Shown: piece by piece, positions 12,001 through 43,553 of the stretch
Layout: each line of letters starts with the position of its first letter
Numbering within the stretch: position 1 is the stretch's first letter
Assembly (NCBI GenBank): GCA_964016885.1
Contig: OZ024755.1
Coordinates: forward strand, 17,298,001 to 17,362,000
Direction of reading: 5' to 3'
Length of the DNA stretch: 64,000 bases
Origin: Eledone cirrhosa
Taxonomy: Eukaryota
The notes under the pieces: generated by a model
What the model saw: only the letters and a program-made list of their open reading frames with translations
What the model was told of the DNA's origin: nothing
Databases searched by the model: none
Translations under genes and position numbers: made by a program

Positions 12001-12032
<32 letters not shown>

Positions 12033-12946: not shown

Positions 12947-13633
12947 AATTAATCATTCTTTTATTCTATTCTTTTTTATTGGTTTCAAGCACCAAAACGA
13001 CCACATTACACTGTGGACTGGGCACTTTTTATCATTGCACCAAAACAACCACTTTACAGTGAGGACTGGGCACTTTTTATAGTAGCACCAAAAGGACCAC
13101 TTTACAGTGAGGACAGCGTAATTTTTCATAAATGACACCAACACAATATTCTAGCCATGATTCTCCTGTCTTTTCAGACATATTTTATCCATGACCACAT
13201 TATACAAAATGTCCTATTATTTTAAAGGTTATATGGTGTCCTTCCAGAGACATTTAGTTACAGGTTGAGAAACTATCTAAACACTCTCTCATTAGGTTTT
13301 TTAGCCCCAGGCCAACAATGATCAAGTAAATATATGATTAAAGGTCATTTTAATTTTTTATTTGTGGCTTACATCCAATGTATCCTTTAAAAACAATGAG
13401 CTGTGTTTTGAGGTAGAGTTAACTTTTTCTCTAGTATGCCAAGAAGCGCATAGAACCTCTCCCACTGGTTAATTCTGCTGTTGCTCTGACTAGAGGTGGT
13501 GATGGTGGCTGTCATGGTGGTGGTTGGTGGTGATGGTGGTGATGGTGGTTGTTGTTAATAGTGGTGGTGGTGGTGGTGGTGATGGTGGTTGGTGGTGACA
13601 ATTTTGTTTTTGTTTTTATTTCAATGAACAAAG

Positions 13634-13670
13634 TCTATCTGCTATCTCTGCAAAAGTTCATCAGTTGAAG
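13634..13670 (+). CDS. Candidate upstream micro-exon of the spectrin-repeat gene ((S)LSAISAKVHQLK)
   Basis: Long T-rich tract, AAG acceptor at 13631-33 (or a decayed CAA at 13622-24), AAG|GTAGGT donor. Ends phase 0 and reads naturally into exon 25594 (VHQLK|KLSQKLE). Confidence 0.35.
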
Positions 13671-13722
13671 GTAGGTTCTTCATGTCAATCATGTGTGAAA
13701 CTTGTTCACAACAACTCTTCTG

Positions 13723-13724
<2 letters not shown>

Positions 13725-13755
<31 letters not shown>

Positions 13756-13978
13756 AGTATACAAACATATATATATATATAAATACACACACACACACAC
13801 ATGAGTATACACACATATATATATATATAAATACACACACACACATGAGTATACACATATATATATAAATATACACACACACACATGAGTATACACATAT
13901 ATATATATATAAATATATACACACACATATATATATTTATTTATCTCTCTCTATATATATATTCACTTATATATATAT

Positions 13979-14010
<32 letters not shown>

Positions 14011-14035
14011 GCAATCATACATGTGTGTGTTTTGT

Positions 14036-14078
<43 letters not shown>

Positions 14079-14245
14079 TGTCTGTATGTTTGTTGGACAA
14101 TATATATATATATATGTGTTTGTGTGTATATATATGCGCGTGTGTGTGTATATATATGTGTGTATGTATATATATATGCGTGTATGTGTATATATATATA
14201 TATATGCGTGTGTGTGTGTGTATGTATATATATATATGTGTGTGT
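13725..14245. repeat. (CA)n/(TA)n/(TG)n compound microsatellite
   Basis: Direct reading. Confidence 0.95.
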
Positions 14246-14406
14246 TACAGGAAAATAAGTATGAGTGGGGGGTGAGGAGAGAAGGAAAAAGACAAGGAGG
14301 AGGAAGTCAATGTTATAGAAACACTATTGTAAAAACAAAAAAAGGTCATTAGTTGTTCTTTGTTTATTAATTTACCTGTCCTCCTGTAAGCAATTCCTCA
14401 CCTGAG

Positions 14407-14487
14407 ATGGGGACTGTACATAGCTGTACAGGTAAGAGAAAACATTCACATTATGGATATGTCAGTGGGCAACCCTCCAGGAGAAAA
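14407..14487 (+). CDS. Candidate alternative first coding exon, MGTVHSCTGKRKHSHYGYVSGQPSRRK
   Basis: gagATGg Kozak context, 27 codons, then a perfect GTAAGT donor at 14488 in phase 0, matching exon 25594. MGxxxS motif, Cys7 and basic clusters. Confidence 0.5.
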
Positions 14488-14501
14488 GTAAGTGTTATAG
14501 T

Positions 14502-14859
14502 ATTGTATAATAATAATTGTTTCTACTTTTGGCACAAGGCCAGCAATTACCCAGTTCATTACTGGTACTTTATTTTATCGACCTTGTATAATAATTGTTT
14601 CTGCTTTTGGCACAAGGCCAGCGATTACCCAGTTCATTACTGGTACTTTATTTTATCGACCTTGTATAATAATTGTTTCTACTTTTGGCACAAGGCCAGC
14701 AATTACCCAGTGCATTACTGGTACTTTATTTTATCGACCCCGTAAGGATGAAAGGCAAAGTTAACCTCGGCGAGATTTGAACTCAGAATGGCAAGGGCCG
14801 TAACTCTATGCGCCAAAGCATGGCGTCCGACCCTCTACCGATACTGCCAATCCACCGCC
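14502..14859 (-). mobile_element. SINE family A with triplicated 3' end (about 78-bp unit)
   Basis: 5' end GGCGGTGGATTGGCAG at 14859; three tandem copies of the 3' segment at 14502-14740. Confidence 0.85.
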
Positions 14860-23475: not shown

Positions 23476-25593
23476 TTAATCGAAACATCATTGAACTAGA
23501 TGGTTTTAACTGAGTAATGACTTTGGTTATTCCTTCTGAATTGTGTATATATATATACATATAAGCAAATACATGTGACGCATGATAAAACTGCAAATGA
23601 AATATGTGCTCTAAAATCAATATTTGATGATAAAAGAATTTTTTTTTTAAGCATTTTACACAATACAACATATATAAAACTTTAGACATTATGTTGCTCA
23701 AACAATACCAAATATCATAGAATATCATAATTATCAAAACTTTCTAAGATGCAGCTATAAAGCTTCATCTTGATAATGTATTTGAATAAAATGAATGCTA
23801 AATATTCTTTCCTTGTACGATTTTCAATGTTTATTGGTGCAACGAGTTGTTGATTTCTACAAATTAATGATGGGGAAACTATTTTAGTCCGAGAATTCTT
23901 TGTGGTGAGAATTTGTATTGAATCAGTATTATTTCTGTGATAACATTAAAGCTCAAGTCTTTAAATGGTATCTGCCATTATCTATAATTAAAGCTACATT
24001 TCATTCTTTTGTCTGCAATAATTGATGATAATTATACAGCATTTAAATTAAGCTTGACGAGTATTATTGCTTTGTAATTCAAATAATGAAATTATTCAAC
24101 CATTTAGTTTGGTTTCAAGGTAGCATTGTCATAGAAACAGAACCATTTCACTGGTGTTTCTTTTCTGTTTACGTATAATTAACTATTCAAGAAATGGTAT
24201 CTAGGGTGTGATAATGGAATTAGCATTTTATCGGAAACAAAGCATAGAAACCAACTACAGTATTACTTCAAATCTTGATCATACCGTATTACATTCCATA
24301 GACAATGGTGACATTAATATTGCTTGATTAATACATGTGGGATTTCTGAAAAGTAAGAATAGACAAGGTTCGATCCAAGTATTGTACTCAACTTCAAATC
24401 ATTGTCATCATTATCATCATTGGTTTACGTCCATTTTTCCATGCTTTGATGGGTTAGATGAGTTGTTCTGTGTTGAGACGAGTGAAATCAGATCAACTGA
24501 TATATATCCTTGTGGTTGTGTTCATTAAGCAGTTAATGAGTCTGTTTAGGAGCATGTCATACCATTGGAATCGAATTCCACCTTCCAACTTATTTATATA
24601 TTTACTTTATTAAATTCATGGTCCTACTACTGTTATCAACTGATTGTGATTGTAAAACAAACTCCTTAACCACACAACCACATTATTTTAGTCGTCGTTT
24701 GCGCTGATGCTGATTGTGTTGGTGTTTCTGTTGTTGTTAAATCTACCATGAAACATTTTTCCCATGGTAGCATTGGATTAGACAAGTTGTCTCATTTGTG
24801 ACAAGTCAGATCAGATGATTGTGTCTTGCTCATACGGAACTGTTTCTGGCCTGGTTTCTATGACTGGATGCCCTTCCTAATACCAATCACATTTACAGCA
24901 TGGACTGGGAGCTTTTTATCGTGTCACCAACAAGACCACTCTACAGTGTGGACTCGGTGTTTTTTGTCATGTCACCAACACGACAACTTTACAGAGTAGA
25001 CCGAGTCCTTTTTGTCATGTCAGCAACACAATCACCTTAGAGTGGAGGTGACAGGGTGCTCTTTGTCATTTCAGAGAGAAACTGTTTGGAATCTTTTCAT
25101 TTCAACTGTACTAGTAAATTTATGGCCAGCCATATTAAAACACTGTCATACTGAATCTCCCTGAGATGAGAATTATGTTAAGGGTACACGAATCTGTGGA
25201 ATACTCAGCTACATATTAATTGAATCAGTTGGTCATCCTGTTGATTACACAATTGGAAGTCATCATTGAAACCGAGAGAAGTCTAATTAATTTATTTAAC
25301 CTTTTAGTTACCAACCTGACCAAAGCCAGCTCTGGTTCTATGAAATAAAGTTGCCCATTTTAAAGGCCTCTAATCTAAATTAAAATCTTCCGATATAATT
25401 TTATATAAGAACTATATGTTAAGTTACTGTTGTAGTAAAGAAATAATAAAATAATTTTAATAAATCCCCCAAAATTCTTCATCCATTAAATGAAATTGGA
25501 AATATGTTCATGAAAGGGTTAATATTAATATTGATGTGTATTTACAAATAATTTTATAACAATATTTATCTGTTACTCACCTTTTCTTTGTAG

Positions 25594-25712
25594 AAATTAT
25601 CTCAGAAACTTGAGTCAAGCCGCAACAAGTTGAAACAGGTTAAATCTAAACAGGAAACCATTACTAAAACTCTCAGCAGCCATGATATACAGTTGGTGGA
25701 TGATAAAGTCAG
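25594..25712 (+). CDS. Spectrin-repeat protein exon (KLSQKLESS...VDDKVR), phase 0 to 2
   Basis: cttttctttgtag acceptor, AG|GTGAGT donor, open frame, phase matches next exon. Confidence 0.85.
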
Positions 25713-26205
25713 GTGAGTATCTGTGTTACATTATCTGTGTTACACTGTGTTACACTGTCTGTGTTACACTGCCTGTATTACACTGTGTTACACTATTTGT
25801 GAAGTTGTGAAGTCAATTCCTGGGTCGAGCAATGCATTGTGCCCTTGAGCAAGGCACTTTCTTTCACATTACTCTTTCTACCAGGAGTTGCGACCAATAG
25901 ATAGTATCAGCAACAGAAAGACCATTGGAAACATTGTTTCCTTGGTACGATGTGACGAGCTCCAGCCCACTTGGTAAGTGAATGAGGTCTGAGATCTTGT
26001 TATTCATTCCTGGAACTGGATACATATGTACACACATACTGTGTCTGGAAAGAAAGAAGAGAAGATCTCTGTAAGGATTCCTTTGATCATCACCTATGCT
26101 CACTCAGTATGTGAATGAGCTCTGGGATCTGGTTGATTCAAATCATATTTATCAAAAATATCTACCATTTCCATGTAAGAACCTTTGTTATGTTCCAAAC
26201 ACCTA

Positions 26206-26373
26206 CCATATTTCCCGGCACCGAAGGCGCTTTGTCCTCGAGGACGCACCCTAATTTTGACGACCAAAAATTTGAAAAGAAATAATAGACAATCTTTGGC
26301 CTCCAGGACGTATGGTAGATTTTTGAGACTTATTTTATGAAAAAAGTAGCGTCTTTGACGCCTGGAAATATGG
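26206..26373. mobile_element. pogo/Tigger-like MITE
   Basis: TA|CCATATTTCC...GGAAATATGG|TA TIRs with TA TSD, nested in a P2-family MITE. Confidence 0.75.
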
Positions 26374-27054
26374 TACTTAATCGTGCAAAATTTGGTTATT
26401 TTAATAAATTCATAAAATTGCTTATGATTAATCATTTTAAAAATAATTTAGAATGTGTCTTTCATCAGAAATGTAATGAAAGAGTTAAAATAAACATATT
26501 TGTGTTGTAGAACCAGAGGTAGTTTCAGACAGTGATTTGAAATAGATTAATCTGCTAGTGTCATCTATCCAATCACCCTGTCAATTAACACACAGTACTG
26601 CTTGTTATTTACTGTCTTAGTCACATCTCTTTGACACATACTCTCAGTTCACAAATAATTGGCCCCCTTGCCATTGCTTGTTAATTTTTCAGATTTTATC
26701 AACCCCCCTTCCTCCACTCTTCACCCCCCTCCTCCATTTATTAAATGTTCCTAATCTATCTCTGGCGAAATTTTATTTTATGTGGTAGCATTCCTGCGAC
26801 AATTCATTTTCTTTAGACATTAAAAAACATTATACATGACAAAAAAGTACATTACTAGAAATCTCATATGTTATAAAATAAATAGGATTGGTCGGGTTTC
26901 AAGATGTAAACTAAACGACTAATTCTGGTTTTTAAAAAATCAACGGAGACGACCTAGAAAAAGTATCATACACACGTATTCCAACTCCTCTCTCTCACTT
27001 ATTACACCCCTTATTATTTGGGACTCATGTGTACACACACATATACCTTTTTTC

Positions 27055-27670
27055 TCACACTGCCAGTCACACACACCTTTACTCTCACACTGTCGGTCAC
27101 ACACACACCTCCACTGTTACACTGCCAGTTGCACACTGCCAGTCACAATATTCCTGTCACACACACACCTCCACTGTTACACTGCCTGTCACACACTGCC
27201 AGTCACAGTATTCCTGTCACACACACACCTCCACCGTTACACTGCCTGTCACACACTGCCAGTCACAGTATTCCTGTCACACACACACCTCTACTGTTAC
27301 ACTGCCTGTCACACACACACCTCTACTGTTACACTGCCTGTCACACACTACCAGTCACAATATTCCTGTCACACACACACCTCCACTGTTACACTGCCTG
27401 TCACACACTGCCAGCCACACTATTCCTGTCACACACACACACACCTCCACTGTTACACTGCCTGTCACATGCTGCCAGTCACAGTATTCCTGTCACACAC
27501 ACACCTCCACTGTTATACTGCCTGTCACACACTGCCAGTCACATTATTGCTGCCCCCCCCCCTGTTATACTGCCTGTCACACACTGCCAGTCACAGTATT
27601 CCTGTCACACACACACCTCCACTGCTACACTGTCTGTCCCACACTGCTAGTCACAGTATTCCTGGCACAC
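27055..27670. repeat. 60-bp minisatellite
   Basis: Unit actgcctgtcacacactgccagtcacagtattcctgtcacacacacacctccactgttac, about 10 copies. Confidence 0.92.
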
Positions 27671-28379
27671 ACAAATCAATCCCTGTTACACAGTTTCAGT
27701 CTAACAACATCTCTGTCCTAATCTCAATTACTTCTTCTCTCTATCCCATCATCCATCCAGATTTGTTCTACTATATTTCTCCTGCCTCTCCTCCTCTCCC
27801 TTCCTCACTCTCTACCCCCTCTCTTTTTCTCCTATCTCTCACTCTCCTTTCTCTCCCCCTCTCCCTTACTCTCCCCTCTCCATTCATAACTCTATTCTTG
27901 CATGCTTCAATTTACACACACATTCTCTCTTTCCCCTATTTCACTTTTTCTCTTCTGATTTATTACCCCTTGGCTCTCTCTCTTTAACTTTCTTTCCCAT
28001 CACTTTCTTTATCTCTCTACTCCTCTCTCTCTCTAATACATATCTCTCTACACCTCTCTCCAATACATATCTCTCTACCCCCCTCTCCAATACATATTTC
28101 ATTGACACTAAATATATAAAAGCTATATTTGACCCTTTCACAATTCAAAACTAACCTACCAATCTGTTCAATAGACCATAAAATAATTTATCTTCAAACT
28201 ATCAAACCAAATTTACTACTATCATTTGTCTAAAAATCTTTATCAGTTAATGTCCATTCTTCCATGCTGGCATGGGTTGGACAGGTCATCACAAACCATG
28301 TCAATACTTAATACTTAATGGAAATCTATCCTTCAAAACAGCAAGCAGCTACGTCTCAATTTTCTGTTTTGACACAATT

Positions 28380-29285
28380 TCTAATGCTGAATGCAGTTCC
28401 TAACATCAACCACTTTACAGAGTGTGCTGGGTGTATTTTATTGTGGAAATAGCACTACTATATTGACACTACTAAATGATATTTTCAGTTCTTTGTATAG
28501 CAGGGTTTCTATAGTTTGATGCCTTTCCTAACACCAACCACTTTACAAAGTGTACTCGGTGCATTTTATTGTAGCAACAGCACTAGAGAGGTTGTCCTAT
28601 CTTTGTCACAACTGAAGACTCTTTTTAATCCTTATGTGATATGCTTTATATGGCTAGATGCCCATCCTAACACCAACCACTTTACAGAGTGTACTGGGTT
28701 CATTTTATTGTGGCACTATCACTAAAAAGGTGTTTATGTCTTTGAAACAACTAAAGAGTTCTTTCAGCCGTTTATATGACATTGTTTCTACAGCTGGATG
28801 CCCTTCATAACATAAACCACTTTACATATTTTGCTGGGTGTATTTTATTATCACCCATTTTGCAGAGTGCATTAATGTATTTTATTGTGGCACCAGCACT
28901 AGAGGGGTTGTTATATCATTGACACTACTAAAATGTCTTTTCAGCCCTTTCTATAGCAGGGTTTATATAGTTTGATACCTTTTCTAACATCAATCACCTT
29001 AGAGAGGGCACTGGATACATATTATCATGGCACCAGCACTAGGGTTGTTGCCTAGTCTTTCACACGACTAAAGAGTCCCCTGAACCCATTTTCTGGCATA
29101 GTCTCTACAGCTAGATGCCCTCCTTAACACTAACCTCTTTACAGGGAGCACTGTGTGCATTTAATTGTAGCATCAGCACTAAAGAGGTTTTCATGTGTTT
29201 GACATAACTGAAGAGTCCTCTCAACACATTTTGTGGTATGGTTTTTGCAGCTAGGTGTCCTTTCAAACACAAACCACTTAACATA
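28380..29285 (-). repeat. Tandem array (about 7 x 140 bp) derived from a SINE-B internal segment
   Basis: Each unit carries gatgcc(c/t)ttcctaacaccaaccactttacag, as in SINE B at 6785-6830. Confidence 0.75.
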
Positions 29286-29342
29286 GTTTACAACAATCAT
29301 TTGTCTAAAAACTATATAGATGTACTATATCTTGTTATCTAG

Positions 29343-29553
29343 GTGTGCAGAGAAAAAATGTGATGAATTGGCCACAAGAGTTAACAAGCAGCTGTTTGCC
29401 ACCAGTACTAAGGATCAGTCAATTCAAGAATTCAAAAACCAAGTTGATGGTATACTGGCATGGCTCAAAGAAATGTCCAACCATATTACTTGTCAAGATA
29501 ACAATATTACCTATCTGGTCAGTGATGCCAGCCGAAGAGTGGATGATATCAAA
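29343..29553 (+). CDS. Spectrin-repeat protein exon (CAEKKCDELA...RRVDDIK), phase 2 to 0
   Basis: TAG acceptor, GTAAGT donor, helix-A motif FKNQVDGILAWLKEM. Confidence 0.9.
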
Positions 29554-29574
29554 GTAAGTAATTTTATATTTTCA

Positions 29575-29920
29575 CTACCACCATGAACATCATCATCATC
29601 ACCTTCACCGCCATCACCACCACCACCACAACAATCATTGTGATCACTACCACCTCCATCATCATCTTCATCATCACCACCACCTTCACCACCACCACCA
29701 TCACAATATGCTCCACCATTAACAATAACACCACCATCATCATCATCATCATCACCCAACCACCACTTCCATCATCATCTTATCATCATCTCCACCTTCA
29801 CTGCCATCATTACCATCACCACCACCACCACCACTACTCTACCATCAACATCATCATCTCCACCTTCACCACCATCATTACCATCACCACCACCACCAAC
29901 ATCATCATCATCATCACCTA
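29575..29920. repeat. (CAT/CAC)n low-complexity tract
   Basis: Direct reading. Confidence 0.9.
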
Positions 29921-31160
29921 ATATCTGTATTGGCCTTATATTTATTCTAATAAGGTTTTGGAAGATTTTATCATATTTCTCTGGTTTAATTTTTATTCTA
30001 AATTATTCCAAACTAACCCTTTATTCTAACTGACCATCAATCCAGCAAAGAAGCCTCTATGTGGTCCCTTGTCCTGCCAGAAATGGCAACCAAATCTGCT
30101 TCAAATCACACTGTGACATCTTTAAAAAAAAGACAGGCTAAATATTTAGTCCAAATACACTGTGTTTGATAATAGAATAAAAAATAAAGTGAACAGAGTG
30201 GTCAAAGCTGGAATGTCTTTAATTATAGGTTGATTGATTAGTATTGATCTAGGGCTAATAACAACAGCAATAGCAACCGATCATAATTTTATCTTAAACG
30301 AATTTGTGTTAGCTATGCTCAATGACGGACATTATATTAACTTGCCTTTCCTTTGAAGATTTGCATATTCTTGCGTATGTGTGTGTGTGTTCTACATATG
30401 TGGAGGTGTGTGGCCTAGTGGTAAGAATGTTGGACTTACAATCAAAAGGTCATGGGTTTGATTCCTGTACTAGGTTGTGTGTGTTGTGGTCTTTAGTAAA
30501 ATATTTTATTTCACATGCTCCAGTATACTCAGCTTAAAATCAGTACCAGAAATAGCTGGGAGTTTAATCCAGTGATGGACTGGTGTCCTGTCCAGGAGAA
30601 TGTCTTGTACTCTCAGTCACTTAATGTCATGGAGATCAAGATAAGCACTTATCTAGAAATCATCTGGCTTGTGATCTGGCTTGTGCTTATTCCAGTTTCT
30701 GTGACATGAAGCAACTGAGAGTACAAGATTCCCCTCTAGACAGGACGCCAATCCATCACAAGGTTACACCCCTCATCTAGTTGTTGCTCCTACTCATTTT
30801 CAGCTGAGTATACTGGAGCAATGTGAAATGAAAGTGTTTTGCTCAAGCACACAACAAACAACCCAGTTGAAAATCGATCCCATGACATTATTATCAGATC
30901 CAACACCATACCACTAGGCCAAACACCTCCACTGAACATAATAGAACAACGTGAAATGAAGTGTTTTGCTCAAGAACGCAACACACAGTCCCTGTCCAGA
31001 AATCAAACCCATGCCATGATATTATGATCAGAAGTCAAGACCCTTACCTCTAGATCATGCACCTCCAAATGCCTTGCTTTAAATATGTCTTTTTCTTGTT
31101 TTTTTCTGTCTAAATTCTGCTCTTTTAATGTCTAACTATAAATAACTGTTCTACCAACAG

Positions 31161-31430
31161 AATCTGGAAATTGAAATGAAGAAGAAGAAGCTCCTATAAC
31201 TCAGTCTATGTCAGGAAGGTATAATATTACTGAAGAAAATACCTGCAAAGAGTCCAGGTTCACAAACAGCTAAAGAAATGGGTGTCTGACATCAAAACTA
31301 TTTATCCAAACATGCTAGACAGTTTAGTTCCGATGCTGGAAAGATGGCAGAAATACCATTTGGAAAGAATCTCTTCTCAACAAAGACATGGATGACACAA
31401 ACAAGATGGTTACAGAGCACTGAGGATAGA
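31161..31430 (+). CDS. Spectrin-repeat exon with in-frame stop and frameshifts, truncated by assembly gap
   Basis: CAG acceptor, phase 0, NLEIEMKKKK. TAA at 31197-99. Spectrin-like pieces in shifting frames (LCQEGIILLKK, LERWQKYHLER, RWLQSTEDR). Runs into Ns. Confidence 0.7.
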
Positions 31431-31630
31431 NNNNNNNNNNNNNNNNNNNNNNNNNNNNNNNNNNNNNNNNNNNNNNNNNNNNNNNNNNNNNNNNNNNNNN
31501 NNNNNNNNNNNNNNNNNNNNNNNNNNNNNNNNNNNNNNNNNNNNNNNNNNNNNNNNNNNNNNNNNNNNNNNNNNNNNNNNNNNNNNNNNNNNNNNNNNNN
31601 NNNNNNNNNNNNNNNNNNNNNNNNNNNNNN
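31431..31630. other. Assembly gap (200 N)
   Basis: Run of N. Confidence 1.
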
Positions 31631-31679
31631 TGAATAGTTTAGGAATCTATGTATAGTCATTTTTTTTTTTTGTTTTATT

Positions 31680-31747
<68 letters not shown>

Positions 31748-31881
31748 TACATATATATATATATATATGTATATAAATAAAACGACCCCTCTTTGGATTT
31801 TAGTCTTCAATTTTACTATTATTACATATATATATATATGTATATATATATGTATACATATATATATATATATATATATGT

Positions 31882-31945
<64 letters not shown>

Positions 31946-32672
31946 GAGTCAGGACCCGATGGATTAGATCTTGCCGCTTCTTTGTAATAGAACCATACTC
32001 TACTACTCCAAATATCCCCCCCCCCCCCTGGATTTGGGCCTCTGTATTTAGTATTACTATATATATATGTGTGTGTGTGTCTATATATGTGTATATATAT
32101 ATATGTCGATATATATATATGTCGATATATATATATATGTGTGTGTGTCTATATATGTGTATATATATATGTGTGTATATATATATATGTCGATATATAT
32201 ATATATGTGTGTGTGCATATATTTTCCAGTGAATACATTTGTATTACTAGTACACATGTGTATAAAATATATGTACATTTATATGTTTTATTCATTGGCA
32301 ACAAAAAAAACCAGAATTTTTGGAAATATTCTTACATATATACTTGGGTTTGCACACACTGGAATCAAAGCTTTGTATAAAATAAATTCAATATTTCAAA
32401 AAAGAAAATATTGTTTTGTTTGTAAAACCTTATAGCAAGGAGCTCAACATATTCTGGGTTTAAGACTGAAAAACAAAGCAAAGCTATTTTAATAACAAAT
32501 ATTTTGGGTAAAGTTTACCAAACTGATCAATCGATGCCAATATATTCTGTTGAATTACATGGAATTTATAGCTAGAATATTATAATATAATGTATATAAA
32601 GTGAGATTGGAAAGACAAAGAAAGGCATTCATTCAATATGTGCGCGAGTGTGTGTATATGTATCTATCTATC

Positions 32673-32703
<31 letters not shown>

Positions 32704-32738
32704 ATGTGTCAGTGTGTCTGTACATATAAATTTGTCTC

Positions 32739-32785
<47 letters not shown>

Positions 32786-32855
32786 ACATACATTACATGA
32801 TGTGTATACATATTTTTATATACATATATATTCCACACATAAATATGTTACTGGC

Positions 32856-32889
<34 letters not shown>

Positions 32890-33085
32890 GTATATGTATG
32901 TATGTATATTTACATACGTATGTATATATTTGTGTGTATGGATATGTATGTATATGTATGTATGTATATGTACATACGTATGTATATATTTGTGTGTATG
33001 GATATGTATGTATATGTACATATGTATGTATATATATGTATATACATGTGTGTATGGATATGTATATATGTATATAAAAATATTT
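31680..33085. repeat. Cluster of (TA)n/(TG)n compound microsatellites
   Basis: Direct reading, with short interspersed unique modules. Confidence 0.85.
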
Positions 33086-33773
33086 ATACACATCATGTAT
33101 GTTGCTTTTATGAGCAACCCAAAAAGTATTGATTTTTGAGATGTTCTTTTAAAAATATATGTTTAAGTAAAACATATATATTTAAAATGAAGAAAATTTC
33201 TTGATATATTGATAATATTAAAAGGTTATAAAAAGTTTTTTTTAATTTCTTTAAATCAGATCTACACAGTCCTGTTGGATAAAATTTAAACTTTTAAACT
33301 TTAAATGTTTTTACTAAGGCATCGTTTCTTCAGGCAAATAATAATAACCATAACAATAAAAATAATGAGCATATATATATATGGAGAATAGGGTGGCTGT
33401 GCAGTTGCTAGTTAAGTTAGGCTTAAAAATGGAATGATAGTAAGAAAAAAGAAAGAACGGTGGTGGTGGGGGTGGGGTCCTCATCAGTTGACTACTGGGG
33501 CTCTCGGATATATATCCGAGAGCCCCAGTAGACAATATATGTATGTGTGTGTGTATATATATATAAATATATATATATATAGTGTGGGTTGTACTGTGAA
33601 TTACTGTTGTTAGTACCAAATCAAGCACTCTATGCACATGGCAGAGTGTATATGATAGAAAAAAACAAGGAACTTTTGTCTACATATGGGGTACCTTGAG
33701 CCAATCCTCTGTGAAATGCACGTAACAGGATGATACACAATAAATATTTTTCATATGTAAACAAAACTTCCTC

Positions 33774-33829
<56 letters not shown>

Positions 33830-34097
33830 AGAAAACGAAAAATCAGTGATGCATCTTAACTCAATTTATTGTGTGTAACAATTGTTTCGCCGGCGGACAG
33901 CTCGAGATGCGATCATTGTGTGGCTCTGTCTGATTCTGGACCCGCAGGTTCGACGGACACGTCTTATGATTTCGGAGCATATTCTCTGCTCTGTAAGAGC
34001 ATACAGTGCTCAACTGGCATACCACCTATGGAAGCATCTTAGCTACCATCACACAGATATATATATAAATGTAAGCTATCGCCATATTTTGACTAAA

Positions 34098-34454
34098 GAA
34101 ATTAAAGAAATTATTTAGCCTGATAGTGGGGTTAAGAACCCTCAGAGAAATGGAAAAAGATGAGTATTGACGTACATGGGAGTCGAATCCACATCTTTGG
34201 TTATCCAGACCACTGTGCTACCATTTACACCAACACATCACATCATGATGTGTTGGTGTAAATGGTAGCACAGTGGTCTGGATAACTAAAAATGTGGGTT
34301 CGACACCCATGTGATGTGTTGGTGTAAATGGTAGCACAGTGGTCTGGATAACCAAAGGTGTGGGTTTGACTCCCATGTACGTCAATACTCATCTTTTTCC
34401 ATTTCTCCGAGGGTTCTTAACCCCACTATCAGGCTAAATAATTTCTTTAATTTC
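34098..34454. repeat. Head-to-head inverted pair of a tRNA-headed repeat (146-bp arms) with an extra 65-bp head copy in the loop
   Basis: 34098-34243 versus 34309-34454, 4 mismatches. A-box TGGTGTAAATGG and B-box GGTTCGAC. Related copy at 1-120. Confidence 0.9.
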
Positions 34455-34516
34455 GGCGATATTTTACATTTATAATAATTTCAAACCCACTCGCTGTTTC
34501 GAAAAATATTCTTACT

Positions 34517-34554
<38 letters not shown>

Positions 34555-34671
34555 AAAATTAAGATAATCAAAATTAAGATAATCAAAATTATGGGTGTCA
34601 TGCCAGAAAGACATGCGCCATATCACCCGCAAAATAAGCTCTAAGATTCTAACGAATAGGTCCGAGCAATT

Positions 34672-34779
34672 TATAATAACTAGAAATTGATTAACATATA
34701 AATAAACATGAATAATCACAGGAGATAATTATTATCTCCTGTGATTATTCATGTTTATTTATGTTAATCAATTTCTAGT

Positions 34780-34786
<7 letters not shown>
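34672..34786. repeat. Palindrome, about 57-bp arms, 1-nt loop
   Basis: Centre ggagataat-t-attatctcc at 34730; one 2-nt indel. Confidence 0.9.
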
Positions 34787-34855
<69 letters not shown>

Positions 34856-34890
34856 ACTGGTATCCACCCGTTTATTGTAGGGTAAATAAT

Positions 34891-35074
34891 TGTAAAAAAT
34901 TGGCACAAGGCCAGCAATTACCCAGTACATTACTGGTTCTTTATTTTATCGACCCCGTAAGGATGAAAGGCAAAGTTAACCTCGGCGGGATTTGAACTCA
35001 GACTGTAAAGGGACGTAACTATGCTAGAAAACATGGCGTCCAACCCTCTACCGATACTGCAAATTCACCGCCAC
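34891..35074 (-). mobile_element. SINE family A with 16-bp TSD
   Basis: ttgtagggtaaataat at 34875-34890 and 35075-35090. Confidence 0.9.
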
Positions 35075-35577
35075 TTGTAGGGTAAATAATGTTGTTAGAG
35101 CTCCAAGGTGTCTTGAAGAGATTGTTCCAAGATCATGTAGTGCGAGCTATTGATTTTGTAGTAGGCTTTCATCACATAAGGTTCCATTGTAAATTCTAAA
35201 GATTCTAATCGAGTTACTGAATCATATATAGTGGCCAAAGGCAACTTCTTCTTCCATCTTTTTAATGTCTACACCCTATTTCATAAGCTAATTTATATCA
35301 TATATGTGCTTGAGCACATCATCTTTTATACTTTTATATATATATATATATATATATATGGGTTTTTAGAATCCATATTCAATAAACAAACCAGGATTTT
35401 TCATTCTGAGGATTGAAAGCAAAACCTTTTGCTTTTAAGAAACCACTGGTAAATGGAATAATTGCCTTATGTTGTTTATTACATAATAATAATAATATAT
35501 ATATATATGTTTGTAGGAAAAGAGTCAAGACCCCGAAGGTGCGTTATGGTCTACCTGGTATCTGACCATGCCTCTTT

Positions 35578-35625
<48 letters not shown>

Positions 35626-35775
35626 GTACATACATATATGTATACAGATGTACAGTAATATGTATATATATACATACATGCGCACATATATATATATGTA
35701 CGTATAGGTTTACCAAACATTTATTATAATGCTCGGTTTGTTTGTAAACAAACTGCCCGAATTAAGCCATTTTTT

Positions 35776-35814
<39 letters not shown>

Positions 35815-36322
35815 TTGATATATATATATATATATCTCTAATCGATCGACTTTCGTCAAATCGGACCGAGGGAGCAATGTTTCCGTTGGTCTTTCCAATT
35901 GCTAATACTATCTATCGGTCGCAACTCCAGGTAGAAGGAGCAACGTGAAATAAAGTGTCTTGCTCAAGGACATAACGCATCACCTGGTCCAGGAATCGAA
36001 CTCACAACCTTACGATTGCGAATCCAATTCTCTAACCACTCAGCCACACGCCTTCACTATATATATTTATTTATTTATTTATTTATTTATTTATTATAAG
36101 AACAGATTTAAGTTTAAGCAAAAAATTATTACTATTATTACATATAATAATTATTATAATAAAATAACAGGAGGCTGGACTTGTGTAAATCCTTGAAAGG
36201 TTTATTATACTATGATCATTTCAATGACCGGGATCCATATGAATCCGGTGATATCATCAGGTATTCGAAATATAACAAAGGAATATAACAGATAAAATCC
36301 ATGGGGCTGAAAATCATAGACA

Positions 36323-37185
36323 TATCATCATCATCATTTTACGTCCGCTTTTCCCTGCTTGCAAGGGTGGGACGGGTCTTATTCAGCACAGCATCTCTCC
36401 ACTCGTCACGGTCCTTCGTCATCTCCACCGTGAGCTTCAATGATCTGAGGTCTGTTCTCACCACCTCCGCCCATGTTTTTCGTGGTCTACCTCTACCATG
36501 TCTTCCTTCAACTGGCATTTCCTGGCACTTCTTCACCCATCGGTCATCCTCCATGCGCATCACATGTCCATACCACCTCAGTCTCCTCTCCCGTACACTA
36601 CATTCTATCCCTCTCAGACACAGTTTCTCTCTCAATACTGGGTCGTTCACGCACATTTACACTGCCCATCCAACGGAGCATGCTTGCCTCATTTCTCTCC
36701 AGCCGTCGCATATCCTCTGCAGTTGCTGCTCATGTCTCAATACCATGCAGCATCGTGCTCCTCACACAGGCATCATATAACCAGCCTTTCGTACGCAGGG
36801 AGAAACCCTTCTTCGTCAGCAGAGGAAGCAGCTCCCTAAACTTCTTCCAACCCGTCCTTATTCTAGATACTATGGCCTTGGAGCACCCTCCTCCCATGCT
36901 AATCTGATCTCCTAGGTACCGGAAGCTATCAACCACTTCTATAGCGCCCTCCTGCATTTGAAAAATGTGTCTATCAATGCAACTTCTACTGTCTAATTTC
37001 CCTGTACATCTACTGCATACATATTTCTCCCTACCTCTTAGTTTGCCTGCTATCCCGCTACATCTCTTGTGTACCCAGGATCTGCATTGTGTGCATTTTA
37101 TAGAATTTATGCCAGTTCCTTTTCTGCATATCGAACATGGCCATTTCCCTGACGGAATCAGAGTTTTGTCCTCTTTTCTACTCAT
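36323..37185 (-). mobile_element. 5'-truncated RTE-clade LINE with PHD-type finger, one stop and one frameshift
   Basis: C4HC3 finger, then EVVDSFRYLGD, RRLRWYGHVMRM, GRGRPRKTW; (ATG)n tail. Confidence 0.9.
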
Positions 37186-37465
37186 ATATATATATATATA
37201 TATATAGGATTCTCCATGGTCTCCATTTGAAGACTATGTATATCCCTTTTCAGAAACTAATTAGTTGGAGTGAAATTTAAGTAAGTTAATTACTATAATT
37301 TCCTATTTTACGTCTTTTATATATATATATATATATATATATTTTCTCAGTGCTTAAATGTCCAAGTATTCTTCTTATGCATGTTGACTAACTGCTAAGT
37401 GTATTGTATCCTTTTAAAATGTTTAACTAATAATGATGTTCTTGTATTCTCTGTTACTTTTCTAG

Positions 37466-37586
37466 AAACTTAAACAAGAAATTGAAGAATACGAATCTCC
37501 ATTGGCATCAGTCTTGGAAAAAGGAAATATTATAAGTAATCAATGTTGTGTTGAATCTCAGGCAGAGCTGCAGCATAAACTAGCAG
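37466..37586 (+). CDS. Spectrin-repeat protein exon (KLKQEIEEYESPL...QHKLA), phase 0 to 1
   Basis: ttttctag acceptor, CAG|GTTGGT donor, phase matches exon 38988. Confidence 0.85.
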
Positions 37587-37884
37587 GTTGGTATATTGAT
37601 CTGTGCATTCATATATTGATTATTTTCTCTCTTATAATATCTATTTAACAGTTATATATCTAAATTCTAAACAATAATTAGTTTAATGTATTGATTAAGA
37701 AATATTTATTAAATAAATTACGAATAAGAAAAATATAGGAAGAAATAATGTCAACAACATTAATAATAATAATAATTGTTTCTACTTTTGGCACAAGGCC
37801 AGCAATTTGAAGGGGAGGGGAAAGTCAATTAAATCAATTCCAGTGTTTTATTGGTGCTTTATTTTATCGACCTTGTAAGGATTG

Positions 37885-38265
37885 TGTTATATGGTCTTGA
37901 CTGTGTTAATTAGACGACAAAGTCACTTCAGAAGCTTTCTACGTTCCATTTGACCGTATCTGTATCAGTGAGATGCTCAACATTACCAAACTTAGGCCAA
38001 TTACATCAATTGTCAAGTCAAAAGTATTCAAACTATACAGCCATATAAAAAGATCAACACATGGTGTGAATAGGTTATGCCTGGAAGGAAGTTTGGCTGG
38101 TAAGAGAAGCAGAGACCGGCAGCCAAAACAATGGCTTGACAATATCAATTTATGGACTGAACTTGATCTTTGCTCTTTGAACCCTGCTGCTGGTGATCGA
38201 ACTTTGTGGAGAGAGATATCACATGTTAATGCGCAGTCTGCAAGTGGCAGAGTTTAATGTCACAA
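37885..38265 (+). mobile_element. RTE/BovB-like LINE C-terminal fragment inserted in SINE A
   Basis: LEGSLAGKRSRDRQPKQWLDNI...DRTLWR motif. Confidence 0.75.
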
Positions 38266-38404
38266 GAAAGGATAAATGACAAAGCTAACCTTGGAAGGAT
38301 TTTTAATATAAACTAAATAAGCTCTCCTATACTAAATGGAGCATTTTTTTCCTTTGCTTTCTATCTGCAGATATCAGATACCCTACTTATACATACATGT
38401 ATAT

Positions 38405-38438
<34 letters not shown>

Positions 38439-38987
38439 GTGTGTGCCTGATGGTCACCGAACTGTTCAGATACCCTGCATATACATACATGTATACACAC
38501 ACACACACACACATATATATATGCCTGATGGTCACCGAACTGTTCAGTTCATTTGTCTACCAGCACATCAGGAAAAAGGATTATACATTTTCTATATATT
38601 TTGTCTGAGGAGAACATGTTTTGCTCTATGTTATACATAAAACTTTGCATCTTCAAAATATATATATAATAAAATAAATAGAGATGATATAAAGTATATA
38701 TCTTTCATTTATTACTATTATTATTATTATATATATATAACTCAATTAGTACCTTGTATATTGCGGCTACAACATCGATTCATACCTAATATTGTTGGTG
38801 GTTGTGGTGGTGGTGTTGTTGTTTATTTTTGTTTCATTCAAAATCTTATTATAATAGTGGAGATTGTTTGTTAAATATATGTATGGTTTCTGCAAATTTG
38901 GAAAAATTGTTTAAAGAATTTTACAGCAAAATACGTTTTGGAACCACTGCTACCAATAGTACATTGTTACTTCATATTTTATTATAG

Positions 38988-39193
38988 GTTTGGAAGCTCG
39001 TTATAATTCACTGAAACAACAAATTACAACTGACCTCAGTGACTTGGAATTGTTCTTTGAAAATCTTTGTAAATATGAGACAAACTATGAAGAACTTAAG
39101 AAATGGTACAAAACAACAAAAATGAAATCATCCAATCCTATCCATACAGACTGTGCTACTTCAGTTCTTCGAAAACAAGTTGAAGAATATCAG
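38988..39193 (+). CDS. Spectrin-repeat protein exon (GLEARYNSLK...QVEEYQ), phase 1 to 0, GC donor
   Basis: TAG acceptor. Ends CAG|GCAAGT with an in-frame stop 6 nt later; next exon needs phase 0. Confidence 0.85.
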
Positions 39194-40375
39194 GCAAGTT
39201 AACCCTTCCGATACTATATTTTAAATGAAATACACTGTGTTTCAATTAATTAGTGAAGAATTTGGAATGATTTACTAAATTTATTGATTGAGGCACATGG
39301 CTTAGTGGTTAGAGCATTGGGCTTGCAATCGAAAGGTTATGAGTTCAAAAGTGATGCATTGTCTCCTTGAGTAAAATACTTTATTTCACGTTGCTCCAGT
39401 TTACCCAGCTGTAAAAATGAGTTGTGACATCATTGGTGCCAAGCTATATCGGCCATTGCCTTTTCCTTGGACAACATCGGTGACATGGAAAGAGAAGACT
39501 AGTATGCATGTGTGATTGCTGGTCTTCCATAAACAACCTTGCTCAAACTTGTGCCTCGGAGAGGAACTTTCTCAGTACAAATCCCATGGTCATTCACAAC
39601 CATGTGAATTTTACCCATTTGTTACATAAGTCATATAGTCAGAACAGATTCAGCAAGACAGCCATATTTCTACAGTTTCCATCAAACAAATTTCACTTGC
39701 AAGGCAAGTTTACAGTAAAAAAACTTGTCTAAGGTATGATACTATGAAACTAAACTTTACCCTATTTGTTACATAACTTGACAAAACATTCTTATATAAA
39801 ATTATGCTGGAGAATTTTATTTTAAATAGAGACTCTTTAAAATTGGTAGTTTTGTTTTTCATAGATTCATAACCAGTTTTGGGGCAGGTTGGTATAAAAT
39901 GAATCAAATGGTATTTTGTTTGGAAATGTTTTCTTGGCTATTGTTTGCTGTTGTTCAGCGGCGGTAGTAGTGGTAGTTGTAGTACTGGAATAACAAGCTA
40001 TCAGTTTGAAAACATTGTTTGAGGCCTTAGTCTTGTCATACCACAATTATTCTGGGAACAAAAAGTAGGATTTGAACCCAGAACTCACATAGTCAGAACA
40101 GATACAGCATGACAGTAAATTTTCTACAGTTTCCATCAAACAAATTTCACTTGTAAGGCAAGGTTACAGTAAAAAAAATTTGTCTAAGGTATGATACTAT
40201 GAAACTAAACTTGAAACCATGATAAGGCTGCAAAGCAAACTCCTTAACTACTCGGCTAACAATTAAAATAAAAGAAATATCATGTCTATTCTATTTATTA
40301 TAATCCAGTAAAAAAATCTCTTTTTAAATATTTTCTAGTTAGATTTTAAATTAAAAGATTAACATCTTTTTGCAG

Positions 40376-40518
40376 GCTTTGAACCAATCTTGTGAAGAAA
40401 AACTGATTGTTTTGTCTGACATGGAATCTATCTCCTCTGTGATGCTCCCAAGACTCTCAGCAACTGATAACAAAACCATGCTAGAACAAATCAAAGACAT
40501 AAACAGCAAAACTAACAG
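40376..40518 (+). CDS. Spectrin-repeat protein exon (ALNQSCEEK...NSKTN), phase 0 to 2
   Basis: tttttgcag acceptor, AG|GTATTT donor. Confidence 0.85.
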
Positions 40519-40610
40519 GTATTTATTACATTGGTTTAGAATTGGTGTTAGCAATTTTAGCTTTTCTATCTCTATTATTTATTTATTTATTATTTATGGT
40601 TGTGATAAAC

Positions 40611-40614
<4 letters not shown>

Positions 40615-40700
<86 letters not shown>
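40615..40700. repeat. (CT)n microsatellite
   Basis: Direct reading. Confidence 0.95.
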
Positions 40701-40704
<4 letters not shown>

Positions 40705-41065
40705 TTCCATGCACTCTCTTGCTTTCTCTGTCTTCCTCTTCTCTCTCTCCTTCTTTCTTTATATACCTCCCTACCTCTCTCTCTCTCCCCAAAACATCAA
40801 AGCTGAGATAGGGAAGCTATATATATATATATATGTGTGTGTGTGTTTATACATGTGCATGTGTATATATAGATATTAACCTGTTGACTGCCATATATAT
40901 TTTACACAGCTGCAGTTGCTGTGCTAGTTTTTTTTCAGTAAAATGAAATTACATGCTGTTGGAAATGAGTTATCTCACCTGTGGAACTGGGATGCATACC
41001 TTTTAGCACAAGTTATCTTGTCTACGGCACTGAAGAGATTCTTTATGCAGTATTATATTATTACT

Positions 41066-41233
41066 AGAGTGTCGGACGCCATGCTTTGCAGCAAAGAGTT
41101 ATGGCCCTTTATGGTCTGAGTTCAAATCCCGCCGAGGTTAACTTTGTCTTTCATCCTTATGGAGTCGATAAAATAAAGTACCAGTAATACACTGGGATAA
41201 TTGCTGGCCTTATGCCAAAAGTAGAGACAATTA
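41066..41233 (+). mobile_element. 5'-truncated SINE family A with about 21-bp TSD
   Basis: attatattattactagagtgt on both sides. Confidence 0.85.
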
Positions 41234-43553
41234 TATTATTACTAGAGTGTTACCCATCATATGTTGCGTCATTTTCGAAGTATGTATAATAGAAGGTAAA
41301 TAAATAAAAACATGTATTAATATATAAATAAAAATAATATAAAATAAGATAAATAAATGAACTCCCTACACTTGCATTTAGCTAAAATGGTTTGTAATAT
41401 TGCTCACATGCATGCAATAACAATATAGTATTAAAGGAAGTAACGATTTGGGAAAAAGAAAAGAAATTAAGAAAAGGAACACATATTTTGATATATGTAT
41501 TTTCTCTTTATCAAAATGAACAAAGGAAGAGAGAAAAGAAGATGTAGCTTCATACAAAGCATTCACTTTTCATTCATAAGTTCCTGGTAAAAAGCATATC
41601 ACACTTAATTTGAAAATATTTATTTCCATGACAAATATCTTATGAATAATATAAATTATGTATGCTGTATCTATAAAAGATTATGTCTCCGATTTTGTTC
41701 CATAGTTTATCAGTCAATTCCCATGTGAATAACATAAATATGTTGTGTATAATAGAATATAAGTTCGATCTTGCACCATAGTTATTAGTATTGCATATGT
41801 TAACAATATCTATCTACTTCATAGAAATATAACAGTCATATTTTGAATGTGAAAATTTACAAATATGTTCATGTTTATGCTGTTATCTCAACTATTTGTA
41901 TGTGTAAGCTGTGTCTGTGTGTCTACGTGTGTATGGTAAGCTTTCCTTTACCTCTCTATCTCTCTCCCACTTTGCCTGCCATCCAACTCAGTATGTGTGC
42001 TTCTCCTTCAACCCATATGTTTATTCTTTCCCTTTCTATTCTCTCTCTAAATGCTCTCAAACATTGGACTCATGAACCAATACACATGATCTATTAGAGA
42101 CAATTGTGTCAAGAGCACAAAAACCTGCTTAGTTTTGATGTTATGATAATATGCACACAGTACACTCTGTAAAGTGCTTGGCATTAGAAAGAATATCTGA
42201 TTGTACAAAACTTGTCAAAAAAAGGATTAGGAAGACTTTATAATTGTGTCAAGGGTATTACTATCTCTCTAGTGATGGTGCTATGATAAAATGCACTTAG
42301 TACACCCTATGAAGTGGTTGGTGTTAGAAAGGGCATCCTGCTGTTTAAAACTTGCCTAACATGGGTTTGAGAGAAATCTTCAGTTGCGTTGGGGGTAGGA
42401 CAATCTCCCTTGAACTGGTGTTATAAATACACATTAAAAAATGCACTTGGTACACTCTTTAAAGTATAGAAACAGGACGCCAGTGCATTGCAGGGTTAAA
42501 CACCCAGCTATTGCTGGTACTCATTTTCAGCTGAGTATACTGGAGCAATGTGAAATGAAGTGTTTTGTTCAAGAACACAACACACAACCCAGTCTAGGAA
42601 TCAAACCACCAACATTATGATCACAAGTCCAACACCCTTAGCACTAAGCCACATATTATATAGATAGTCTTTAAATATATGGAGCTATTGTGATACATGG
42701 GGAATAAATACAATGGTTAAAAAAGGCCCTCAATACATGTGTAGTAGATTGATAATTGGAGAAAATATTCTGAAGAAAACTAAAAAAAAAATCCTCCAAA
42801 CCAAAAAAGTGTCTGTTTTTAAAGAATGAGAATTGATAGTATATAACAGAGCAGAGTGTAGAGAAGTCACATAGATCGATCCTAATCATATTAGCATTGG
42901 GAAAACAGTTGTAAACACAAGATATATCTATATTATATTTTATTGGCATAAATCCCTAGGGCAGCTCAATATAACTGCTATAACTCAATAGTTCTGTTAG
43001 CTATGAAATAAAAGGAAATAAAAAGTACAAAATATAAAAGTGAGGAAAGAAAAAATATAGCATTGACCATGTTCTTTTAAAGGTATCTTGCTGCAAACCA
43101 CATTTTAAGTTCTGTCAACTGTTTTATATTTCAAAGCATGATTAGTAATATATGTTAAACTTTCTTTAACATTTTATATCGATAGAGAACACTTAAAATA
43201 TAAGCTCCAAACTGATCTAATATATTCTGACTACATATTTCTAAAATTGTAGAAGCAGACATGATAGTGTGGTTTAGAAGTTTACTTCACAACTGCAGGG
43301 CTCTACTTGGCACCTTGGACAACATGTGTCTTCTGTTGCAGCCTTAGGCTAATCAATGTCTTGTGAAATTGATAGAATGAGAATGTACAATAGTCCATTG
43401 AATATGTGTGGGTGGGTGTATGTGTGTGCACGGTAGTGCTTACCATTAAAGCCAACTCAAGTGCAGAACTCAGAGTGGTGCATTACTAAATCTTAAATAA
43501 TCATAGTTTTATACAAATTAAATAAAATATTTATATTCAATATATATATCAAA

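What the first reader, a model, noticed from the sequence alone, without database searches (positions are those of the whole stretch)
14407..14493. Hidden alternative first exon encoding a myristoylation/palmitoylation/polybasic anchor for a spectrin-repeat giant
Seen: a unique island between a microsatellite and a SINE has a strong-context ATG, encodes MGTVHSCTGKRKHSHYGYVSGQPSRRK and ends exactly at GTAAGT in phase 0, in frame with exon 25594. Established: MGxxxS is the N-myristoyltransferase consensus, and a nearby Cys plus basic residues form SH4-type membrane anchors. Vertebrate dystonin has an alternative N-terminus with a myristoylation motif. Inference: an internal promoter makes an N-terminally truncated isoform tethered to membranes by lipids; if the gene is a KASH nesprin, this would be a direct membrane-to-nucleus linker. 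A competing phase-1 donor (CAG|GTAAGA, 14432) also exists.
Basis: partly seen in the sequence, partly recalled or inferred. Interest (0 to 1): 0.75.

Follow-up and report, generated by a model that had tools for sequence, protein, structure and literature searches.

The report
Candidate lipid-anchored start exon of nesprin
Inside a long intron of a giant nucleus-anchoring gene (nesprin-1), a single-copy stretch holds a start codon, a fatty-acid attachment motif and an in-frame splice signal, so it likely begins a shorter form of the protein that would stick to membranes instead of gripping actin, though its use in the cell is untested.

Summary
In detail: ATG at 14407, 27 open codons, and a phase-0 donor in frame with exon 25594. 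The host is a roughly 625-kb nesprin-1/Msp300 gene with CH exons 320-340 kb upstream and a KASH exon 221 kb downstream. The candidate lies in a 67-kb intron that the giant form skips (collinear with amphioxus nesprin-1). It sits 18 kb after an unreported 610-codon alternative last exon, a plausible place for an internal promoter. It is single-copy, its donor type is the commonest in this gene, and the feature set arises by chance about 0.001-0.014 times per 29.5 kb (filters chosen after the fact). Against: a stronger phase-1 donor 56 nt upstream gives a stop after 14 codons when joined to 25594 and itself spells two of the basic residues. A similar look-alike in this window lies in a high-copy repeat. 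A second last exon downstream could remove the KASH. Transcription, splicing and lipidation are all inferred. Verdict: about 45% a real myristoylated internal start, 30% chance. It would be a new variant of known internal-start nesprins; the direct membrane-to-nucleus tether is about 12%.

The parts
14407..14487 (+). Candidate coding part of an alternative first exon, 27 codons: Gly2, Ser6, Cys7, six K/R, no acidic residue
   Evidence: single copy
14488..14493 (+). Phase-0 splice donor AAA|GTAAGT, 10.6 bits, stronger than 44 of the 63 donors of this gene used for training; the same 9-mer ends 4 of those 63 exons
14432..14437 (+). Competing phase-1 donor CAG|GTAAGA, 12.7 bits, stronger than 58 of 63; joined to 25594 it stops after 14 codons, joined to 38988 it is open
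14251..14406 (+). Possible 5' leader: purine-rich, two short upstream ORFs (ATG at 14261 and 14310); a weak-to-moderate acceptor precedes 14251 (9.1 bits, above 14 of 63)
13671..13676 (+). Third strong donor AAG|GTAGGT (11.1 bits), single copy, no upstream in-frame ATG; possible end of a non-coding first exon (inferred)
13725..14245 (.). TA/CA microsatellite upstream of the island
14510..14739 (.). 78-bp unit x 2.9 tandem repeat just downstream of the donor
25594..25712 (+). First nesprin rod exon after the 67-kb intron; phase-0 acceptor shared by the giant splice and the candidate
29343..29553 (+). Next rod exon (phase 2 in, 0 out)
38988..39193 (+). Nearest phase-1 acceptor exon found (ends at a GC donor); the only in-frame target found for donor 14431, at the cost of skipping three exons

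Best explanation
The stretch 14407-14487 is likely the coding end of an alternative first exon, driven by an inferred internal promoter that lies after an alternative last exon of a nesprin-1/Msp300 gene, and it would splice in frame to exon 25594. Shown: host gene, intron position, frame, single copy, donor strength. Inferred: (1) a tissue-specific start in 13.1-14.4 kb, perhaps with a non-coding exon ending at 13670; (2) use of donor 14487; (3) removal of Met1 and myristoylation of Gly2; (4) palmitoylation of Cys7 and/or binding of acidic lipid by the K/R residues as second signal. The product would lack both actin-binding CH domains and the 5' rod. It would run about 4,600 residues to the KASH, or about 1,700 residues if it ends at the second last exon. 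The lipid would replace actin binding as the far anchor, holding the rod on a membrane within about 0.2 micrometre of the nucleus (ER, Golgi or a closely apposed plasma membrane). The stronger donor 14431 would give an unproductive form and could tune output.
For: Host: KASH match E 2.6e-23 at G000:C15:17583158-17583331, + strand; CH exons 323-340 kb upstream. Position: the intron -41375..25593 holds a single-copy 610-codon exon ending in a stop with AATAAA 250 and 290 nt later. No convincing internal exon lies between it and 25594, so any restart must come from this 29.5 kb. Of 8 donors >=8.2 bits there, the top three (14431, 13670, 14487) lie within 820 nt; 14487 is the only phase-0 one with an upstream purine(-3)-ATG-G. 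14431/14487 is the only pair within 60 nt among 52 strong + strand donors outside the training exons. Among 12 purine(-3)-ATG-G + strong phase-0 donor hits on the + strand of 664 kb it is the only one with Gly2; the minus strand has 0 NMT-motif hits among 8 at >=8.2 bits. Residues 2-6 fit the NMT motif quoted in PMC9018777. Exon GC is 0.43, against 0.32-0.41 for 8 rod exons and 0.18-0.45 for 26 unique intron islands. Internal starts and stops are normal for the family.
Against: Every step beyond the DNA sequence is inferred. The upstream donor is stronger (12.7 vs 10.6 bits), gives a stop after 14 codons with exon 25594, and its GTAAGA spells K10-R11, so part of the basic patch is a by-product of a splice signal. 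Position 7 is Cys, not the K/R of the published motif, which the paper calls optional. A look-alike with Gly2, Ser6 and a phase-0 donor of 8.9 bits at 52981-53046 lies in a high-copy repeat (46 matches from 40 of 2523 candidates scored). At a donor cut-off of 6.5 bits in any phase there are 3 other + strand and 2 minus-strand motif hits in 664 kb. The null filters were set after seeing the candidate. The giant form needs no such exon: amphioxus nesprin-1 aligns across the junction without an insert. None of 54 mostly long relatives inspected begins with an NMT motif (39, 15), but none of the 7 named representatives is a cephalopod and many are partial gene models.
Confidence: 0.45

Rival explanations
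1. A chance look-alike: neutral intron DNA that happens to combine an ATG, an NMT-type motif and two donor-like 9-mers. The gene uses only the giant splice and the alternative last exon here, or a different promoter.
For: Expected 0.004-0.06 per 64-kb window on both strands, depending on the filter, which is not rare across a scan of many windows. A repeat-borne look-alike exists in the same window. Exact donor 9-mers occur on the minus strand too: AAAGTAAGT 5 times, CAGGTAAGA 2 times in 664 kb.
Against: Single-copy island in an intron 52% covered by repeats; sense strand, right phase, after a last exon; three strongest donors of 29.5 kb clustered here; 0 hits in 60 Mb with a donor >=10.55 bits plus both second signals.
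Confidence: 0.3
2. A real promoter-proximal exon whose main donor is 14431. Joined to 25594 it makes a 14-codon upstream ORF, so the nesprin frame would start by reinitiation at a later Met (for example in exon 29343) or the RNA would be degraded. Alternatively it would join the phase-1 exon at 38988 and give an 8-residue myristoylated leader without the basic patch.
For: Donor 14431 is the strongest in 29.5 kb and comes first. The whole NMT motif and Cys7 lie upstream of it. 14431>38988 is open.
Against: No phase 1-to-0 exon or microexon was found between 14432 and 25594. The 38988 route skips three exons. The frame stays open to a second strong donor in exactly the phase that 25594 needs.
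Confidence: 0.17
3. A real, translated alternative start whose peptide is not lipidated or does not hold on membranes; it would merely supply an ATG for a CH-less nesprin, like nesprin-1 alpha/beta or Msp300-G/M.
For: No K/R at position 7; CH-less isoforms without a known lipid anchor are common in the family.
Against: Gly2, Ser6, Cys7 and a net +6 charge without acidic residues would all be coincidence.
Confidence: 0.08

Closest known systems
Human nesprin-1 variant p931KASH-Nesp1 (Rajgor et al. 2012, PMC3388047; passages, section 5 and one row of supplementary file 1 seen)
   Same: Internal start in an intron, CH-less, proposed with KASH; the authors note a predicted N-myristoylation site.
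   Different: It starts in intron 14/15 near the 5' end and keeps almost the whole rod; large variants were hypothetical there and the site only predicted. The candidate starts past the middle of the gene; no sequence homology was tested.
Drosophila Msp300 CH-less isoforms E, F, G, M and KASH-less B, E, F (PMC8616381, passages; PMC11230431, passages and section 5)
   Same: One nesprin-1 locus with four starts and four poly(A) sites making CH+/- and KASH+/- products.
   Different: Fly internal starts (exons 18, 21) lie upstream of the early stops (exons 26, 29); here the candidate start follows the early stop. Neither paper mentions myristoylation (0 occurrences).
Dystonin-a3 (spectraplakin; PMC3308695 and bioRxiv 10.1101/122010, passages)
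   Same: An alternative N-terminus with a putative myristoylation/palmitoylation motif aids plasma-membrane anchoring of a spectrin-repeat giant.
   Different: Different gene family, with a microtubule-binding C-terminus and no KASH; the variant N-terminus sits at the 5' end next to the actin-binding domain, not in mid-rod. It is an analogy, not a homologue.
Myristate-plus-second-signal N-termini of Src-family kinases and G-alpha-o (PMC9018777, passages; PMC2133112, search listing only)
   Same: Gly2, small residue at 6, nearby Cys and basic residues.
   Different: Cys at 7 rather than 3; never tested for this peptide.

Membership tests
Nesprin-1/Msp300 (host gene) | C-terminal KASH domain | tested here: met
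   PF10541 match, 93.7 bits, over the cut-off, same strand, 221 kb after the window; the only match reported in G000 from 150 of 182 candidates scored
Nesprin-1/Msp300 (host gene) | N-terminal paired CH domains | tested here: met
   tblastn of CH regions of P0073 and P0091 hits -326.6 and -323.5 kb at 51-63% identity; further CH exons at -340, -337 and -321 kb
Nesprin-1/Msp300 (host gene) | Long spectrin-repeat rod collinear with nesprin-1 orthologues | tested here: met
   Collinear hits to proteins named nesprin-1-like; alignment score 837 vs 196-221 for 5 shuffles against amphioxus X15. Pfam Spectrin itself is weak: E 0.004, below cut-off, in 1 of 8 pieces
Alternative first exon | ATG in good context, open frame and donor in phase with the next exon | tested here: met
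Alternative first exon | Transcription start (capped 5' ends) at or upstream of the exon | not testable with these tools
   needs CAGE, 5' RACE or raw RNA reads
Alternative first exon | Spliced junction 14487>25594 in RNA | not testable with these tools
Alternative first exon | Conservation in related species | tested here: inconclusive
   searches could not reach cephalopod nesprins; see Tried and rejected
N-myristoylated proteins | M-G-[^DEFRWY]-X-[^DEKR]-[ACGST] at positions 1-6 | tested here: met
   M G T V H S against the motif quoted in PMC9018777
N-myristoylated proteins | K/R at position 7 (preferred, called optional in the same passage) | tested here: not met
   position 7 is Cys
N-myristoylated proteins | Myristate on Gly2 and a working second membrane signal | not testable with these tools
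   needs labelling, mass spectrometry and localisation

The most novel reading that the evidence does not exclude
An internal promoter turns the 3' part of nesprin-1 into a two-ended membrane tether: myristate, palmitate and basic residues at one end, the KASH in the outer nuclear membrane at the other, linking the nucleus to a second membrane with no actin in between, with two competing donors switching it on and off.
Probability: 0.12. Interest if true: 0.7.

Novelty: new variant of a known kind. Interest (0 to 1): 0.4.

Why it matters
LINC complexes are thought to reach other membranes only through the cytoskeleton. Work in worm and fly shows giant nesprins act partly without their CH domains (PMC8139857, search listing; PMC11230431, passages), which leaves open what holds the far end. 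A lipid-anchored, CH-less KASH isoform would be a simple answer, testable with a 27-residue GFP fusion and one RT-PCR. Four paper searches showed no demonstrated myristoylated nesprin, only the prediction for p931KASH; I opened few of the listed papers, and most subscription journals are not searched. If the exon is not used, the stretch is ordinary intron and the lasting result is the gene map with two alternative last exons.

Tried and rejected
RNA: the one run search, with 14246-14500 (19 sampled words), listed 3 runs of one sample and no RNA holder; this is no evidence either way. Laying them on 14246-14509 gave 0 records. On 13100-13720 it gave 1 unspliced intronic contig per run, as DNA would; they may be the assembly's own source. 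Homologues: exon 29344-29553 against proteins of 124-2000 aa, 0 of 11 candidates; Lingula P0005 residues 1-110 against 1766-5621 aa, only itself among 656; 14407 onward, first 40 residues, against 35-114 aa, no candidate. A real rod exon also drew a blank, so these say nothing on conservation. The representative search (125 hits) gave one 85%-identical single-exon piece and no long close relative. A degenerate pattern for the first residues gave 1 metagenome locus, a chance hit with a different sixth residue and early stops. A recalled likeness to the N-terminus of the CDK5 activator p35 found 0 papers and is not used. Octopus + nesprin gave 4 unrelated papers. The Jaw1 paper's one mention of myristoylation is a reference title. 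(U1 sites near promoters) was seen as a listing only and is not relied on. Rejected: the island as an in-frame cassette from 14251 (stop at 14350-14352); acceptors at 14391 or 14407 (1.2 and -5.1 bits, below all 63); 52981-53046 as a second such exon (repeat); donors at 11949 and 12691 (in or beside an inverted-repeat element). The '16 stops' for the giant join came from a one-base coordinate slip, corrected (0 stops). Earlier-finding look-ups by place and sequence were empty. No fold or complex prediction was run: it cannot test a 27-residue lipid signal.

Full report
Observation. ATG 14407 has G at -3 and +4; 27 codons are open to AAA|GTAAGT (exon end 14487, phase 0); a second donor CAG|GTAAGA ends at 14431 in phase 1. 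Exon 25594 has a phase-0 acceptor. Seventeen exons from 14407 to 62252 read as 1001 codons without a stop. Coordinates below zero count back from the window start (G000:C15:17298001).

Host gene. An exon scan of the window plus 200 kb on each side showed spectrin-like exons on the + strand throughout. The KASH family matches once, 221 kb after the window. CH exons lie 321-340 kb upstream. Collinear relatives are named nesprin-1-like in Lingula, Tubulanus and Branchiostoma. The gene spans about 625 kb.

Position. No rod exon lies between -41376 and 25594. The direct join is in frame and aligns to amphioxus nesprin-1 X15 with no insert at the junction (offset 2399 to 2401; score 837 against 196-221 for 5 shuffles), so the giant form skips the intron. 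Inside the intron, at G000:C15:17292290-17294122, is a single-copy 610-codon low-complexity exon in phase with the -41376 donor. It ends in a stop with AATAAA 250 and 290 nt later, has no Pfam match, and its C-rich acceptor scores low on my matrix (-0.3 bits). I read it as an alternative last exon. The candidate lies 18 kb after it. In human nesprin-1 a 3' end at exon 82 is followed by a 5' start at exon 83, and the fly gene has four starts and four poly(A) sites, so a restart here is plausible, not shown.

Is it more than chance? I trained splice matrices on 63 exons of this gene, picked from my own scan. AAA|GTAAGT is the commonest donor among them (4 of 63); 14487 outscores 44 and 14431 outscores 58 of the 63. 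Between the last exon and 25594 (29.5 kb) only 8 donors reach 8.2 bits, and the top three are 14431, 13670 and 14487. Among 52 strong + strand donors outside the training exons, 14431/14487 is the only pair within 60 nt; the minus strand has 55 such donors and 3 pairs, all in one 5-nt tandem. The island 14268-14492 is one of 26 unique islands in a stretch 52% covered by repeats and is single in the genome at DNA and peptide level. In 60 Mb of order-5 Markov DNA, good-context ATG + Gly2 + NMT motif + phase-0 donor >=8.2 bits came 29 times, and 2 times with both Cys and net basic charge; with donor >=10.55 bits, 6 and 0 times. A cruder null gave 0.015 per 29.5 kb for Ser/Thr6 plus Cys. These filters were chosen after the fact. 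Look-alikes exist: 52981-53046 passes the motif and donor tests but lies in a high-copy repeat, and at a looser cut-off 5 other hits occur in 664 kb on both strands.

The two donors. The upstream donor is stronger. Joined to 25594 it stops after 14 codons; joined to the phase-1 exon at 38988 it is open but skips three exons. No phase 1-to-0 exon or microexon bridges it to 25594. Its GTAAGA spells K10-R11, so the basic patch is partly a by-product; Gly2, Ser6 and Cys7 lie before it. The donor at 13670 and an acceptor before 14251 (9.1 bits) allow a non-coding first exon and a 580-nt microsatellite intron; the leader would carry two short upstream ORFs.

Mechanism. Residues 2-6 fit the NMT motif quoted in PMC9018777; position 7 is Cys, not the preferred K/R. 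Established knowledge: myristate needs a second signal, here Cys7 or the six K/R without acidic residues. The product would lose the CH domains. Length: 670 residues before exon 52344 plus about 2,430 and 1,500 from Lingula and Patella alignments gives about 4,600 residues, some 43 repeats, about 0.2 micrometre at a recalled 5 nm per repeat. It could bridge nucleus and ER, Golgi or a closely apposed plasma membrane, not a wide cytoplasm. A second predicted last exon of 262 codons at G000:C15:17389868-17390656, in phase with the exon ending at 87747, would instead give a KASH-less rod of about 1,700 residues. Gene models of Patella, Tubulanus and B. belcheri begin 57-145 residues before the exon that follows that second intron (scores 61, 61, 49 against shuffle maxima 48, 51, 45). 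That hints that stop-and-restart is real at the second site; it is weak, may be an annotation break, and concerns another intron.

Comparison and novelty. Internal-start, CH-less nesprins are known. A predicted myristoylation site was noted for human p931KASH-Nesp1, which starts in intron 14/15, and dystonin-a3 has a putative myristoylation motif. None of 54 mostly long relatives inspected starts with an NMT motif; 2 start with Met-Gly but lack the small sixth residue. Paper searches showed no demonstrated myristoylated nesprin. An earlier AI note (e1-7881182) reports a transcribed nesprin 5' exon with a predicted myristoylation start in another genome, and another (e1-9822960) found a similar candidate to be a transposon relic; both are unchecked leads. 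Papers seen: PMC3388047 (passages, section 5, one supplement row); PMC8616381, PMC9018777, PMC3308695, PMC7804115 and 10.1101/122010 (passages); PMC11230431 (passages, section 5); all others as search listings only.

Verdict. Observation confirmed, interpretation partly supported. A good, cheaply testable candidate for a new variant of a known kind; expression and conservation stay open. Interest 0.4.

Noticed in passing
G000:C15:17292290-17294122 (L002:4290-6122; 5.7-3.9 kb before the window): Single-copy 610-codon Ser/Pro/Gln-rich exon ending in a short basic helix-like tail and a stop, with AATAAA signals; likely alternative last exon giving a CH+ KASH- nesprin. No Pfam match.
   Followed up: partly
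G000:C15:17389868-17390656 (L024): Second predicted alternative last exon, 262 codons, Ser/Pro-rich, in a 26-kb intron; three invertebrate gene models begin just before the next exon.
   Followed up: partly
window 52981-53046: Met-Gly start with Ser6 and a phase-0 donor inside a high-copy repeat (LINE tail by recall): a false look-alike of the finding.
   Followed up: yes
window 38988-39193: Rod exon with a phase-1 acceptor and a GC-AG type donor (CAG|GCAAGT).
   Followed up: partly
window 29554-38987, N gap at 31431-31630: The exon chain is about 110 residues (one spectrin repeat) shorter than amphioxus here; an exon may lie in or near the gap.
   Followed up: no
window 11690-12545: Element with long perfect terminal inverted repeats (about 65 nt seen), probably a non-autonomous DNA transposon.
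   Followed up: no
window 14370-14404, minus strand: Two donor-like sequences on the opposite strand just upstream of the ATG (read); not scored, may be chance or mark a divergent transcript.
   Followed up: no
L003/L004 and L023 (about -20400 to -19200 and 79500-80900), minus strand: Long open reverse-transcriptase frames of a LINE-type element inside nesprin introns.
   Followed up: no
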